NCBI RefSeq assembly: GCF_031769215.1
Contig: NW_026781869.1
Location: 248,001 to 312,000, forward strand
Direction of reading: 5' to 3'
Length of the DNA: 64,000 nucleotides
From: Ylistrum balloti
Taxonomy: Eukaryota
In this document: one piece after another, positions 15,001 through 21,000 of the stretch
Numbering within the stretch: position 1 is the stretch's first letter
Layout of the letters: every line of letters begins with the position of its first letter
Program-made: the position numbers

Positions 15001-18000
15001 TTGCAGTGTATGGGTTTGAATCTATGGAGTGAAGTAGAAGGCATGATTTTTTGGCATAAACGATATTCTTCGTCAGTCTTTGCTGCTTTCTAGCTGGTAA
15101 CAGGTTGAAAAGGGAAAATGGTTTTTATACCAGACGTTTATCAAAAAATGGAGAAATTTAACTATGTTTTTTCAAAGAACAAATCACAGACACCGCTTTA
15201 TACCTGAAGAGTTCATAGAAAAGGTTCTGAAAAACTGTTTTGAAGCTGTTTTGACGAATTGGTATTATGATGAATTGAAACAAGATCTCTCTTCCAAAAC
15301 AAATGCTACAGTGGGTCCTAATCCCGTCCTGACTTTATGTCAGAAAATCCTCTAGATATAGCTGGAAACTTGATGAGGTAGTAATACTATGGATGAAAAC
15401 TGAAGCTGAAGGGGTTATTTGTACACTTTGTAGAAAGTTGAGCACTGATATCATTTCTTACCTACTGATCGAGTGTCATGTGCATTACCTTACGCGTGAT
15501 TCCTTCTTTGATAACATTGTTAATGTAGTAAATATCAGAGACTATGTGAGATTTCGTCTCTTAAAGAGAATCCTTAATCAGGTTTTCTGTTGGTCAGCTG
15601 TACTCGCGTTGATTTGTCTGACGAGAAGTGGTAGACTTTAAGGTTTGTTGTTGCTGATGGAGTTGAGATGATACTCTCCACTATGAACTCACGGCTTGAA
15701 CTGATTGTGTCATGACTTATGAATGATATTGAAGTTTTATGTGCGGAATCTGTAACTAGCATTGAATTATGCATTTTTCAATGTTGTTTGAGATATCTTT
15801 ACAGAGGAAATAAAGAATGTTTGTCATTGTTTTTATTGTTTTTATCAAGTGGCAGGTCAACCTCACGTCCACCATGTTGAAGTACATCTGGTTTATCTAT
15901 AACGTTTCACAAGGACAAAGCTGGATTAACATTCACAAAATATATGTGTGAATATAAGATGAATATCAAGGGTTTTTCAACCTTTTATTAAAGATAACCT
16001 TTGTACCTTGGTAGCAACAAATGTGTAAACCAGTGTTAATTTTAATTCAACTTACATCGCTTTCAGCATCTGTACTTCTCCAGTAGTTCCCTTAATAATA
16101 TTCATAATATAGACCGAATGTCAGTGTGTTTTTGCACCTCTCCTGGTAATTATTGCATTTGCTTAGGGAGGGGGCAAGTTACTTTGAACAGCCATGTTTT
16201 ACTGGCCTTTGACGGATCTATTTATTATCTATCACACTGAAACGTCATGCCTGTACAAAGTACCAAGACACCTCAACTGGTCTACATCGCCTCTATTACT
16301 GATCACCATGCTTTATATGTTATGGCTAGGGGACAACATTTCCTCCTATATGGGCGCACGATTTACATCAAAGGTCAAAAGTAAAGTAGTGCCAAGAGAA
16401 ACATAAAGGAGATCAGCTGTCTTTGAAAAGAGAGGAAACAAAAATATATCACGTTTAGTCACCTTTTTACAATGACTGCATTACAGTATGTGGGCAAAAG
16501 GTGCAAATCATGCGTGTTAATTATAGGATTGAATTACGCCCACACCATACTCTCTTTTGAGGCACCTACAACGCTACCAAATAAGCGATATTGATTGTAC
16601 TACCTTTACTTATGTACATTTGACCTAAGATAACTGTTGACCCGGATGAAACATAACATATACAGAACACGTGCTATCAAAGTGCTTTAATTGCGCATAT
16701 TTTCAACTGAACAAGCACAAGAGTGTCTACAGGTGAGTTTATACATTACCTAGTTTTTTTCGAATATACTTCTGTAATTCCGAATTTGACTGGATAATGA
16801 TATAGTATACATCATCCAAATTTTGGGTTTGGTTTAACACTGCAGTTTGGTAATGATAAGACGTAGTCTGAACACTCGATAGACATGAACCCAAGAGATA
16901 GTACGTCTTGTTTCACGGTGTCACTGTTAATGCTGTCTTAGTCGGTTCCTTATCAATGCTATCATCGCCTCATCTGATTTAAGATAACGACGCAGACAGC
17001 AAATATTCTATTTTCTAAAAACACATGTAAGGTTTCATGATTAAGGTTAAATCTATATGAAATCAATCATTCTTACTATAGCCAGGCTATCGATAAACCA
17101 TCACGGACAAAAATAGCGTTTGGGTGTGCTATTTATATCATCATAAATTTTAATCATACATAACGTCAATTTGTTTAAGTTCGTAATTGCGATGAAGAAC
17201 GGTAAAACTAGTGCCATTCTGCTACTAGTATTTATTATCCATGAGACTGTATGCCTGTCATTGCTCCATGGACACATGAAATCACAGGAAGCACTGGCGA
17301 TCAGACCAACATCAGAGTTGGAGCATTTGGAGGCAATCATCGGCGGGGAATTGGAGAGTGAGTCAATTCGATAGTCAGAAACTAACATAGCCAACCCTCA
17401 AATACAAACTGAAGATCTAGAGGAGGGTGCTCCTTAGTTTGTATACTAGTCACTTCGGGAATATCCATGCTGTGTTTTGAAATTTACAAAGGTTTAGATC
17501 GAACAGTAAAACGGATATTTGCGATATAATGATCTCGATAAACATGGCAGTGCTATCCTTATTTTGATCGTATAGATTTAAACAACAATGTTGTTAGAGC
17601 GTCTATTAGTTGATAATTCCAAAATATGGGTCACTTTAATCTGGATTCTTGACCCCACTAATGTCACATTTTCAGTGGCGTAATTGACAGTCGTCACTCA
17701 GGCTGGATGATATGCATATGATAATTTTGCGGACGGACAATTTTCCATAGTAATAATATCGTAAATTGCTTCCATTGGCCAATCAAATACCATGTTACGT
17801 CGCAAATGAAGTAGAAGGGTGTTACAAAAAGTACAGTACATGTTTGAATATAATTGTAGAATAAAGTACTGTATACACGATAGCTGATTAACTGATATTA
17901 GTGGCGTAATTTGAGGCAATCCTGAAGGCAATAGGAAAGCCTATTCGGCTGTAAAAACTGTTTGTAAAGTATGATAAAGCCTTAGATATCCAATAAGTTT

Positions 18001-21000
18001 AGAGGAACATCACGAGGGTATGTATATTCTGAGATATAATGGTGTTTATGATACTGTATCACATATATCTTGTAAATGTACATTATGTAGTAAGTAAACA
18101 GGTATATAATGCGCGTTTATTGAATGATACACTTTCTGTACGTAGGACGAATCTAACGTGCTCCATTCTTAGACGCGATAGAGCCCATTCTATTTAGTAA
18201 GGCATTCACACATAGTTATCATAAAATGATATCTGATTTTAGATACGCCCATACATGTATTCCTAGGCAACAACTCACATTTAATCTAAAAAAGATGAAA
18301 AAGTAGGGACCAAATTCATGTCATTTTGCAATTTGGTAGATAAATAATTCCAATATGTATATTTCAGTCTGACAAAACTATACACAATGAGAAAGCAATG
18401 CGTTCTTATGGTGATCATTCGGGACATATTTGAGATACATGTAAGGTGTGGCAGTGGTTGTTTTCTTAAAATCTTTCTCGGCGTAAATATCTTTACACTT
18501 TAACGTATTTGGATTCTCAAAAAAAAAAAAAAAAAAAATACAAACCCCGAAGCAGCAATGAAAGGAATCGGTATACTAGAATAATAACTATTTAGGAAAA
18601 TTATGATAAGATTGTTGGCATCTTAAAGAGTTTGATTAATTGTACTGCAGAAAATGGGTAAGGATTAAAGTATAAATATCACCCCCATCGCAGCGTAGGA
18701 ATTTGAAGAGTGCAAATGAAGTGAAAATATTTCTTGTGCGATATAGCAACAAGAAGGTACTATTGACATTCGACAGATGAGATCCTTTGTGCCCCTCATA
18801 TATATAGATATACGCATCATTTTTTTATTTATTAATTTGAAGGTCTCATCCCTGAAGGACTAACGGACGCTCTTGGTCACATTATCGGCAGACGAGTAGA
18901 GGTAGGTAATGACTTAATACAGTATTGTTGTATCATGTCTCAAATATTATCATCATTGCTTTTGACATATTCTTGTTATCCCGTGTTTTTTAATTATCTA
19001 TATGTAAATGCTATTGATTTGCATATGTTTAGAATAATTGACTTTTACAGTTTTAATTTCTTTCTTTCTTTTTTTTTTTTTTTTTTTTTGCCCATGACGA
19101 ATAGCTTATTTTGTTTACTTTCAGGCAACACACAGATTGTAAATCCAAGTTCCAGGAAGACGTTGTCTGTTTAACCGAGTGCTGTCTCCTGAATCATGTT
19201 TGTAAATAAACATAATTAAAGGCATTGTCACAGGAACCTAGGTTCGTGATTGCGAATGATTTAGTGTCCTCTTGACAGCAAGGGTTATATGAAGCCTGTA
19301 GTTCAAGAGGCCAAAGATTGAACGAAAATAAGTGTTGTAAGCGGCATAGGCGTATCATTCATATAGTTTTGATGTTTCTCTGGAGGAAGACTCCAAGGAA
19401 ATATTTCGAAGGGTAGGATATGAAATGCAGTGGAATACAGCAAATCGTATGGTTAATAAAATATGTTGCTCGCAACTGAGCGAGATCGGGACATCTCACT
19501 CGAGGGCTTGGATCCTTTAACACAATCCAAACCGTGGGCGTTAGCCGAGATTAGGATGTTACAGGATATGATTAAAGAAACAGAATATCTTTGATATTTT
19601 AACTACTACATTACCTATGTTTTTGTCGTCGAAATGCACAGATGTAAGTGCCACCTTCGCCTACACGCGGATGAATACACCAATGCTTACAAAATTCCGC
19701 GAAAGCGCACGTAAAGATACTAAATAGATCGGGCGCGATAGAAAAGTATAGGATGGGGTATTACGTGGGAAATCCCTGTCTGAGGTGCAAGTATAGAGTG
19801 TCTCTCCAACGTCGTCTATTTTGGTCAGTGATCGAAGATTACGAGACACAAAGCAAGACACAACATAAACTTTCTTCTTGCGTTCTCGCACTGATTTCAA
19901 AATGTGTGATTTTCAACAGTGTTTTTGTTCCTTAGCTCGTGAATAACATATAAAAATAGTCGAATCACTAGATTTTATACATCCGATGATGTAAATCCTT
20001 AATACTACTGATCTGACCTTTTAAAGTCTGAAAAAAACTACTGAAACCTTATAATATATTGTTCAAAGAACACAAGTTAATGACACATGTCAGTACATGT
20101 TATTAGTTGCGTGGAATAGAACAAGTATTTACTGAACAGCTGTTTTAACATTAATGGACTCTTCCGTAAGGCTAGGACCCTAAATTTTGAAACCTGTTCA
20201 ATGTCTAAGGAAAACTAAAGTTTATTAAAAGAAATGTGAAAATCCATATGGGTTGGGGCACTAGCCCTTAATGTCATAGACTTCAATATTGCTTAATCTT
20301 GGACGAACGAGAGCATGGAATCTGTATGTATTCTCTGAACTGTGCTATTATTCGAATTAATTAAAAATGCAGGAAAACAATAAAAATCACAAAAACAGAT
20401 ATTCTACTGCTCACAATGCTGAAATATTATTACTCAGTTATTAGGGTAAATGTAAAGTTTACAGCATTTAGCAGGACTCATATAGTCCTTGTACCTTAGT
20501 GAACAAAAAGTGCAGATGTCCAGTATTGATTTATGCTACCTGATGCTGAGCTGACTAAACGTTTACAAGCACGCAGATTAATCATATAAGAATGTTCTTG
20601 AAATCGTAGTATGTCTGATGACACACGAATAAAAAACGGCATCAGATATCGAAATGTGAGATTGTATTCAATTTAAAACTCTTCGAAACCACAAATGCAA
20701 TCTTTGATCTCTAACAAACATAATCATGCGAGATTAAAGTTCCTATAAACCAAATAATTATGTTCTCTTCAGTACATACTTGCGTTCAGCTTCTCTTTGA
20801 AGAACGTATTACAACCATTTCAGGATAATCTTGTATTTGCATCTGTCCGGCTTGCCTCTCTCGATGGCGTGGGATAGTCTTTGAATATTTATCATTGTGA
20901 TTCGATGATGTCTACAAAACAGCAAATAACCAATGTGTTAATGTGTAAAATATACAATTGATTTGGGCAGTCCACTGGAAAAGATGAGATGAGATTTATG

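What the first reader, a model, noticed from the sequence alone, without database searches (positions are those of the whole stretch)
17192..19210. Unannotated-looking small secreted precursor hidden across three short exons
The ORF track shows only a 67-aa fragment. Splicing yields a signal peptide plus a 49-aa Glu/His-rich peptide ending LGHII-G-RR, predicted to be amidated. With 8 acidic, 2 basic and 4 His residues it could be an anionic, metal-dependent or pH-switched peptide.
Basis: partly seen in the sequence, partly recalled or inferred. Interest (0 to 1): 0.68.

Follow-up and report, generated by a model that had tools for sequence, protein, structure and literature searches.

The report
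Candidate orphan secreted amidated peptide gene
A small three-coding-exon gene model for a secreted, acidic peptide with an amidation signal really is written in the DNA and is better than chance, but it has no detectable relatives and no expression evidence, so it remains a plausible yet unproven lineage-specific peptide gene.

Summary
The described sequence features are all present. There is an ATG at 17192 with a signal-peptide-like start, a GTGAGT donor at 17358, a 59-nt exon at 18843-18901 encoding ...LGHII-G-RR-VE, and a last exon from 19125. The stop is at 19140-42 and AATAAA at 19205-10.

The model beats chance in my controls. A model this good arose in 1 of 150 simulated windows. Exon GC is 45% and 52%, against 34% and 25% in the introns. 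Codon bias is positive in the right frame. The splice sites rank in the top 0.3-3.9% of their kind.

No relative was found for either coding exon in the protein libraries, Pfam, PDB or paper text. No catalogued protein contains these exons, although a neighbouring gene of this window is catalogued. The only library hits were WD40 proteins, which I read as a repeat-summed artefact.

Exon B weakly echoes a motif repeated in a secreted-protein gene 14 kb upstream. That gene also has a tiny second exon ending LL-G-KR.

Best reading: an unannotated, lineage-restricted prepropeptide, cleaved at RR and amidated (confidence about 0.45). The metal or pH function is untested. Transcripts could not be checked. 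The joined protein was never used as a query.

The parts
16733..16738 (+). Consensus splice donor CAG|GTGAGT. It may close a 5' non-coding exon ending at 16732.
   Evidence: Best-scoring of 4013 GT sites on the + strand. Its partner acceptor is uncertain: 17178-79 scores at the median and 17084-85 scores 0.24. A TATA-like TATTTATA about 55 nt before the ATG would allow a transcript start without this exon (read; inference).
17192..17357 (+). Coding exon A: start codon, signal peptide and the acidic N-terminal part of the peptide (55 codons plus the first base of a split Ser codon).
   Evidence: Translation. GC is 0.452, in the top 6.1% of 166-nt windows. Codon log-odds is +5.9 bits against -11.4 and -4.7 in the other two frames, and 12.9% of 85 null ATG ORFs do as well.
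17192..17272 (+). Signal-peptide-like region (residues 1-21 to 1-27). The n-region is MKNGK, the h-region is SAILLLVFII, and possible cuts lie after C21, S23 or G27.
   Evidence: Passes my heuristic. Hydrophobicity profile. No SignalP available.
17358..18842 (+). Intron (1485 nt, phase 1), GT...AG, GC 0.338.
   Evidence: The donor at 17358 is in the top 2.2% of GT sites and the acceptor at 18841 is in the top 3.9% of AG sites. GC.
18843..18901 (+). Coding exon B (59 nt): (S)LIPEGLTDALGHII-G-RR-VE.
   Evidence: Translation. GC is 0.525, in the top 2.5% of 59-nt windows. Codon log-odds is +7.8 bits over 19 codons. It is one of only 4 acceptor-donor-bounded open exon candidates on the + strand at these cut-offs, against 0.68 expected per simulated strand.
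18887..18895 (+). Gly-Arg-Arg codons: amidation donor plus dibasic cleavage site.
   Evidence: Only 9 hydrophobic-hydrophobic-G-[KR][KR] sites occur in all six frames of the window.
18902..19124 (+). Intron (223 nt, phase 0), GTAGGT...TTTCAG, with a long T run before the acceptor. GC 0.247.
   Evidence: The donor is in the top 0.3% and the acceptor in the top 1.1%. GC.
19125..19142 (+). Start of the last exon: ATHRL and the stop codon TAA (19140-19142).
19205..19210 (+). AATAAA poly(A) signal 63 nt after the stop, followed by a GT-rich stretch.
   Evidence: This is weak on its own: 64 AATAAA sites lie on the + strand, about one per 1000 nt.

Best explanation
This is a real but unannotated, lineage-restricted gene for a small secreted prepropeptide of 80 aa.

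Inferred processing:
1. The N-terminal signal peptide is removed on entry into the ER, somewhere between residues 21 and 27.
2. A prohormone convertase cuts after Arg72-Arg73.
3. A carboxypeptidase trims the two Arg residues.
4. Peptidylglycine alpha-amidating monooxygenase converts Gly71 into a C-terminal amide.

The product would be an acidic, 43-49-residue peptide ending ...LGHII-NH2. It would be 32 residues if the single Arg38 is also cut. A 7-residue tail, VEATHRL, is released.

The most likely role is a secreted signalling peptide (neuropeptide- or hormone-like). A host-defence role is the second option.

Shown here: the sequence features and their departure from chance. Inferred: every processing step, expression and function.
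For: **Gene model**
- ATG ORF, in-frame splicing across two introns, stop and AATAAA.
- Splice sites in the top 0.3-3.9% of their kind.
- Exon GC is 0.452 and 0.525, against 0.338 and 0.247 in the introns. Clear genes of the same window show the same contrast (0.47-0.61).
- Codon log-odds is positive only in the proposed frame: exon A +5.9 bits, exon B +7.8 bits.

**Chance controls**
- A full model this good arose in 1 of 150 simulated windows, and in 3 of 150 at relaxed cut-offs.
- In the real window, relaxed cut-offs give a model for 2 of 10 signal-peptide-like ORFs. The other one is an evident multi-exon gene at 3057.
- Of 12 acceptors scoring 0 or more downstream of the donor, only 18841 opens a frame that is closed by a strong donor.

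**Context**
- The signal-peptide heuristic is passed.
- Two other peptide-precursor-like genes lie on the same strand. P0002 at 46935-47501 has its nearest Atlas clusters all among neuropeptide precursors, at 0.84-0.87, which is lead level only.
- The gene at 3057 has a 175-nt first exon that ends in phase 1, like exon A. Its 49-nt second exon carries ...ALAALL-G-KR.
- Exon B resembles that gene's repeated motif. Against E5 (LTDSLSHI), 1 of 500 shuffles reach the observed score; E1 11, E2 13 and E4 20 of 500.
- The best non-self tblastn hit of exon B in the window falls in frame in E5, at E = 0.57.
Against: - No relative was found. Exon A gave none among proteins of 29-95 aa or 96-2000 aa. Exon B with intron read-through gave none among 33-105 aa.
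- The full HMMER scan of 1.84 billion representatives returned 12 hits. All 4 that I examined are WD40 repeat proteins, matched through summed repeats.
- Pfam gave no hit and PDB none. The Atlas score of 0.78 is uninformative.
- The genome is annotated, since P0002 is in NCBI/UniRef, yet no catalogued protein carries these exons.
- Exon A's codon score is only modest: 12.9% of null ORFs do as well.
- The mature part of exon A shows no similarity to the 3057 gene. Shuffles reach the observed score in 95-408 of 500 trials. BLASTP between the exon pairs is not significant.
- Skipping exon B (17358 to 19123) is also in frame and would remove the amidation site.
- My cut-offs were chosen after seeing the model. 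The splice matrices are recalled approximations, and the simulation ignores local GC heterogeneity.
Confidence: 0.45

Rival explanations
1. There is no gene. A chance ATG ORF with a hydrophobic start, common in AT-rich DNA, happens to sit near splice-like signals, and the reader stitched them into a model.
For: - No homologue and no catalogued protein.
- AATAAA is frequent, about one per 1000 nt on this strand.
- Exon A's codon score is reached by 12.9% of null ORFs.
- The proposed 5' UTR acceptor is poor.
- One of the 4 strong exon candidates on the + strand (54587-54659) lies antisense inside the STEAP-like ORF, so it is probably false. This shows that the exon filter does let false positives through.
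Against: - 1 of 150 simulated windows gives a comparable model.
- The exon/intron GC contrast, the frame-specific codon bias and the strong splice sites coincide on the same short pieces.
- Exon B in-frame resembles a motif of a neighbouring real gene.
Confidence: 0.3
2. The gene is real but the product differs from the proposed one. It could be a small secreted acidic protein or host-defence peptide that is not used as an amidated signal, an isoform that skips exon B, or a short diverged duplicate (possibly decaying) of the secreted repeat protein encoded at 3057-7462.
For: - The exon-skipping path 17358 to 19123 is in frame. Its acceptor is the strongest nearby and it adds 15 codons.
- Motif and gene-structure parallels with the 3057 gene.
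- There is no dibasic site upstream of the presumed peptide, which is unusual for neuropeptide precursors.
- The net charge of about -6 is atypical for known amidated signals.
- An anionic, amidated defence peptide whose action is enhanced at low pH exists: maximin H5. I saw only the titles in the reference list of PMC11880157.
Against: - Exon B has its own strong acceptor-donor pair, high GC and strong codon bias.
- A G-RR placed two codons before the exon end and seven codons before the stop fits a processed C-terminus.
- There is no DNA-level similarity to the 3057 gene.
Confidence: 0.2
3. Exon A is a relic of a WD40-repeat gene.
For: All 12 hits of the representative scan match query residues 11-44 in one to six stretches each. 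Pairwise, residues 16-42 are 33-41% identical to successive WD40 blades of P0003. The 4 of 12 hits I scanned are WD40 proteins.
Against: - The best single stretch scores only 27 bits. The low E-values come from summing the same 27 query residues over many repeats.
- Pfam WD40 does not match exon A even at E up to 10.
- No second blade or any other WD40 piece lies nearby.
- The matched part overlaps the hydrophobic signal-like segment.
Confidence: 0.03

Closest known systems
Generic amidated neuropeptide or peptide-hormone precursors with one C-terminal peptide (PDF/cerebrin-type and CRH/DH44-type layouts; layouts recalled from the literature, not from a call)
   Same: - Short precursor with an N-terminal signal peptide.
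- A single peptide near the C-terminus, followed by Gly plus two basic residues and a short tail.
- A hydrophobic amidated end. The CRH-type 'II-amide' ending is recalled, not checked.
   Different: - No sequence match to any Pfam family.
- No dibasic site on the N-terminal side of the peptide, only the single Arg38.
- Strongly acidic, with 8 D/E against 2 K/R.
- No homologues found.
Neighbouring gene of the same window, ATG 3057 to stop about 7462 (+ strand): a secreted Leu/Ser/Thr/Gly/His-rich repeat protein with no family assigned
   Same: - Same strand, 14 kb away.
- The first exon carries the signal peptide and ends in phase 1.
- The tiny second exon carries A-L-x-x-hydrophobic-hydrophobic-G-[KR]-R.
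- Exon B resembles its repeated motif (LTDSLSHI, GLTSA, ALAALLGKR) at 1 to 20 of 500 shuffles.
   Different: - It has at least six coding exons and continues for about 190 more residues after its G-KR.
- The exon phases after the second exon differ.
- Exon A shows no similarity to it.
- No DNA similarity.
Maximin H5, an anionic C-terminally amidated amphibian antimicrobial peptide
   Same: It is anionic and amidated, and low pH enhances its action. I saw only the titles in the reference list of PMC11880157.
   Different: It is an amphibian skin peptide of about 20 residues (length recalled). No sequence comparison was possible because no tool gave me its sequence. Any likeness would be convergent.

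Membership tests
Amidated secreted regulatory-peptide precursor (generic class) | Cleavable N-terminal signal peptide | tested here: met
   My own heuristic (positive n-region, 9-residue uncharged hydrophobic core, small residues at -1/-3) is passed. Profile. SignalP was not available, so this is a weak test.
Amidated secreted regulatory-peptide precursor (generic class) | Gly followed by a dibasic convertase site at the C-terminus of the peptide | tested here: met
   ...HII-G-R-R-VE in exon B. Such sites after two hydrophobic residues occur only 9 times in six frames of 64 kb.
Amidated secreted regulatory-peptide precursor (generic class) | Mature peptide and processing sites conserved in related species | tested here: inconclusive
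   No relative was found for exon A or exon B.
Amidated secreted regulatory-peptide precursor (generic class) | Spliced transcript, and a peptide detected in secretory cells | not testable with these tools
PDF / cerebrin type | Match to the family profile, and an 18-residue amidated peptide preceded by a dibasic site | tested here: not met
   No Pfam family matched exon A or exon B at E up to 10. There is no K or R between Arg38 and Gly71. That the family has a Pfam model is recalled.
CRH / DH44 / egg-laying-hormone type | Match to the CRF family profile, and a peptide of about 40 residues flanked by basic sites | tested here: not met
   No Pfam match. The length and the amidated hydrophobic end are compatible, but the upstream basic site is missing. 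The peptide straddles two exons and was only tested in pieces.
WD40 repeat | Significant match to the WD40 profile, with several blades | tested here: not met
   Pfam WD40 is absent at E up to 10. The library hits are repeat-summed.
Paralogue of the window's gene at 3057 | Significant sequence similarity over the shared exons and the same intron phases | tested here: inconclusive
   Exon B against E5 reached 1 of 500 shuffles, E1 11, E2 13 and E4 20. Exon A shows none. The first intron is phase 1 in both genes; the second differs.

The most novel reading that the evidence does not exclude
The locus is the founding, still unannotated member of a lineage-specific family of long, anionic, His-bearing, C-terminally amidated secreted peptides. 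The family arose by tandem duplication and truncation of the neighbouring secreted repeat-protein gene at 3057. Its Glu/His pattern would make its activity depend on pH or on metal ions. A cut after S23 would expose an N-terminal X-X-His site, a possible copper/nickel-binding motif. That motif is recalled and was not tested.
Probability: 0.1. Interest if true: 0.55.

Novelty: new member of a known kind. Interest (0 to 1): 0.33.

Why it matters
If the gene is real, it is an example of the short peptide genes that automatic annotation misses: an 80-codon gene split over three coding exons. It would add an orphan amidated peptide to this animal's secretory repertoire. It would sit beside two other precursor-like genes on the same strand, which could show how new peptide genes arise from neighbouring secreted-protein genes. 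The practical value is modest: it is a concrete target that RT-PCR and mass spectrometry can test. If it is not expressed, it is a useful caution about spliced models built by eye in AT-rich DNA.

Tried and rejected
- **Protein searches, exon by exon.**
  - The word-index search with exon A found nothing among near lengths or longer proteins.
  - Exon B alone was too short for that tool. I sent an unaltered 60-residue stretch running into the intron instead, and it found nothing.
  - The full HMMER scan with exon A gave 12 hits. I examined 4 and all are WD40 proteins. I rejected them as repeat-summed chance.
- **Family and structure libraries.** Pfam gave no hit for exons A and B and PDB none for exon A. 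The ESM Atlas score of 0.78 for exon A is uninformative.
- **Exact look-up.** The 60-aa read-through ORF is not in the collection.
- **Paralogues in the window.** None was significant at protein or DNA level. Exon A's best non-self hit is E = 0.44, exon B's is E = 0.57, and blastn found only A/T runs.
- **Similarity to the gene at 3057.** BLASTP of exon A against its E1 and of exon B against its E2 was not significant.
- **Rfam.** No hits on the whole window.
- **Paper full text.** Searches for 11 peptide strings from the model and from two neighbouring genes found 0 papers. A search for HII-amide names found 29 papers. None of the 15 listed is relevant.
- **Structure prediction.** The tool was not accepting jobs.
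- **SP-like ORF at 7334.** Rejected as a gene start: it is the last exon of the 3057 gene read from an intronic ATG.
- **Candidate exon 39094-39136 with FL-G-KK.** No matching signal-peptide exon was seen, and I left it open.
- **Not done.**
  - No search or fold used the joined 80-aa model.
  - The genome-contig collection holds only bacteria and archaea, so I did not use it.
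Full report
**Setting**

The window is AT-rich eukaryotic DNA. GC is 0.31-0.43 in 2-kb steps, there is no N and there are no Rfam matches. I do not take it for human. Its recognisable genes are:
- a single-exon STEAP-like reductase on the minus strand (Pfam F420_oxidored and Ferric_reduct);
- an intronless 189-aa precursor-like ORF (P0002), which is held letter for letter in NCBI/UniRef on a contig of 1,015,133 bp;
- a multi-exon secreted-protein gene starting at 3057.

**The observation**

- The default ORF list shows only a 67-aa TTG-start ORF at 17171..17374.
- The first ATG is at 17192, with G at -3.
- Exon A runs to 17357 and is followed by GTGAGT.
- Exon B is 18843-18901, between AG and GTAGGT. 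With the split codon AGT (Ser) it reads S-LIPEGLTDALGHIIGRRVE.
- Exon C begins at 19125 after TTTCAG and reads ATHRL-stop.
- AATAAA lies at 19205-10.
- The model has 55 + 1 + 19 + 5 = 80 codons.

**Is it more than chance?**

I scored splice sites with rough position matrices whose frequencies I recalled rather than derived, so the ranks below are only indicative.

| Site | Rank among sites of its kind on the + strand |
|---|---|
| Donor 17358 | top 2.2% of 4013 GT |
| Donor 18902 | top 0.3% of 4013 GT |
| Acceptor 18841 | top 3.9% of 3252 AG |
| Acceptor 19123 | top 1.1% of 3252 AG |
| Upstream donor 16733 | the best GT of all |

An AG at 17084 scores better than 17178. A TATA-like TATTTATA about 55 nt before the ATG would also allow a start with no upstream exon (read; inference).

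Other measures point the same way.
- **GC.** Exon GC is 0.452 and 0.525, against 0.338 and 0.247 in the introns. These are the top 6.1% and 2.5% of equal-sized windows. The clear genes of the window show the same contrast.
- **Codon usage.** A codon table built from the two intronless genes gives exon A +5.9 bits, against -11.4 and -4.7 in the other frames. Of 85 null ORFs, 12.9% do as well. Exon B gets +7.8 bits over 19 codons.
- **Full-model enumeration.** The enumerator requires a signal-peptide-like ATG ORF, donors and acceptors at least as good as observed, G-[KR][KR], at most 150 aa and AATAAA within 200 nt.
  - It found this model and no other among the 10 signal-peptide-like ORFs of the real window.
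  - At relaxed cut-offs it also found the evident gene at 3057.
  - In 150 simulated windows (second-order Markov), 1 had such a model, and 3 at relaxed cut-offs.
- **Exon B on its own.** Bounded open exon candidates as good as exon B number 4 on the + strand and 0 on the - strand, against 0.68 per simulated strand. One of the 4 lies antisense in the STEAP-like ORF, so it is probably false.

Caveats:
- The cut-offs were set after the fact.
- The simulation ignores local GC heterogeneity.
- AATAAA occurs once per 1000 nt on this strand.

**What it is related to**

Nothing detectable.

The presumed mature peptide straddles the A/B junction, so it was never tested as a whole.
- Exon A found no candidate among proteins of 29-95 aa and none scoring E ≤ 10 among proteins of 96-2000 aa.
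- Exon B was too short alone. With 40 residues of intron read-through it found nothing among proteins of 33-105 aa.
- The full HMMER scan of 1.84 billion representatives with exon A listed 12 proteins. I examined 4 and all are WD40 repeat proteins.
  - The same 27 query residues align to blade after blade at 17-27 bits each.
  - The E-values are therefore sums over repeats. Pfam WD40 itself does not match exon A.
  - I treat this as chance.
- Pfam, PDB and the ESM Atlas (0.78) give nothing.
- Full-text searches for peptide strings found 0 papers. Searches for HII-amide names found nothing relevant. Supplementary tables, where neuropeptide catalogues usually sit, were closed.

No catalogued protein carries either exon. 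'Unannotated' is therefore supported as far as that collection goes.

**A lead from the neighbourhood**

The gene at 3057 has the following first two exons:
- a 175-nt first exon with the signal peptide MKLFLLACLLAGASA, ending in phase 1 like exon A;
- a 49-nt second exon reading ...AEHAALAALL-G-KR-EH.

At least four more in-frame exons follow, up to a stop near 7462 with AATAAA at 7493.

Links between that gene and the target:
- Only 9 sites of the form hydrophobic-hydrophobic-G-[KR][KR] exist in all six frames of the window. Two of them are this exon and exon B.
- Exon B's best non-self tblastn hit in the window falls in frame in that gene's fifth exon: LTDSLSHI against LTDALGHI, E = 0.57.
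- In Smith-Waterman tests with 500 shuffles, exon B reached or beat chance levels of 1/500 (E5), 11/500 (E1), 13/500 (E2) and 20/500 (E4). E3 gave 141/500. The figure for the sixth exon does not count, because I gave the script the wrong frame for it.

Against the link:
- The mature part of exon A showed nothing: 95-408 of 500 shuffles reach its score.
- BLASTP between the exon pairs was not significant.
- There is no DNA similarity.

The evidence suggests, but does not show, that the target is a short, old duplicate of the front of that gene.

A third precursor-like gene, P0002, lies 28 kb downstream on the same strand. It has KR-...NPTGW-KRKKR and KR-Q...NPTGW-stop. All of its nearest Atlas clusters are neuropeptide precursors, at 0.84-0.87, which is lead level only.

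**How it most likely works**

If the gene is expressed, four steps follow.
1. The signal peptide is cut somewhere between C21 and G27.
2. A convertase cuts after RR.
3. A carboxypeptidase removes the two Arg residues.
4. The amidating enzyme turns the Gly into the amide of Ile70.

The result is an acidic peptide of 43-49 residues, or 32 if the lone Arg38 is also used. All four steps are inferred from the textbook pathway for amidated peptides. None is shown here.

The helical hydrophobic moment is modest, up to 0.47 in the last 11 residues.

A signalling role is my first choice and a defence role my second. Maximin H5 is an anionic, amidated peptide whose action is enhanced at low pH. It shows that such a mechanism exists. 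I saw only the titles in the reference list of PMC11880157.

**Alternatives**
- It may be chance, with no gene (0.30).
- It may be a real gene with a different product (0.20). Options are:
  - an isoform that skips exon B, which is in frame via the strong acceptor at 19123;
  - a secreted protein that is not amidated;
  - a decaying duplicate of the 3057 gene.
- It may be a WD40 relic (0.03).

**Verdict**

If real, this is a new, orphan member of a familiar kind of gene. Interest is moderate to low until a transcript or a conserved copy is shown.

Noticed in passing
window 46935-47504 (+): Intronless 189-aa ORF (P0002). It has a signal-peptide-like start and two ...NPTGW peptides flanked by KR or KRKKR, the second beginning with Gln after KR and ending at the stop. 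It is held letter for letter in NCBI/UniRef. It has no Pfam family. All its nearest Atlas clusters are neuropeptide precursors at 0.84-0.87, which is lead level only. The strings were not found in paper text.
   Followed up: partly
window 3057-7498 (+): Multi-exon gene for a secreted Leu/Ser/Thr/Gly/His-rich repeat protein. The exons are about 3057-3231, 3672-3720 (with ALL-G-KR), 3991-4148, 4432-4571, 6271-6451 and from 7373 to a stop near 7462; AATAAA lies at 7493. Exon GC is 0.51-0.61. The exons tested have no significant Pfam or PDB relative; the only matches were at E 0.04-1.3. Its repeated motif weakly matches the target's exon B.
   Followed up: partly
window 53908-55407 (-): Single-exon 500-aa STEAP-like metalloreductase ORF, with F420_oxidored at 2e-18 and Ferric_reduct at 5e-07. 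This exact sequence is not in the protein collection, so the catalogued form may differ in start or splicing.
   Followed up: partly
window 18518-18538 and 19069-19090: A run of 20 A and a run of 22 T, fully complementary, flank exon B with 531 nt between the arms. In a pre-mRNA they could pair and loop out exon B, which might favour skipping or back-splicing. This is speculation only.
   Followed up: no
window, + strand versus - strand: Signal-peptide-like ATG ORFs of 35 codons or more number 9 on the + strand and 1 on the - strand. Simulated windows give a mean of 2.05 for both strands together. At least 4 of the 9 belong to the real or candidate secreted-protein genes at 3057, 17192 and 46935/46938. 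The one at 7334 is an artefact inside the last exon of the 3057 gene.
   Followed up: partly
window 39094-39136 (+) and 31708-31752 (+): Two further short open exon candidates with a good acceptor and a strong donor. The first encodes ...PLMFL-G-KK-W. I saw no matching first exon.
   Followed up: no
window 58517-59821: GC-rich stretch with strong G-over-C skew (0.218 for 58001-60000). It has overlapping Lys/Glu/Arg-rich open frames on the + strand. It could be exons of a charged protein or a repeat element. Not examined.
   Followed up: no
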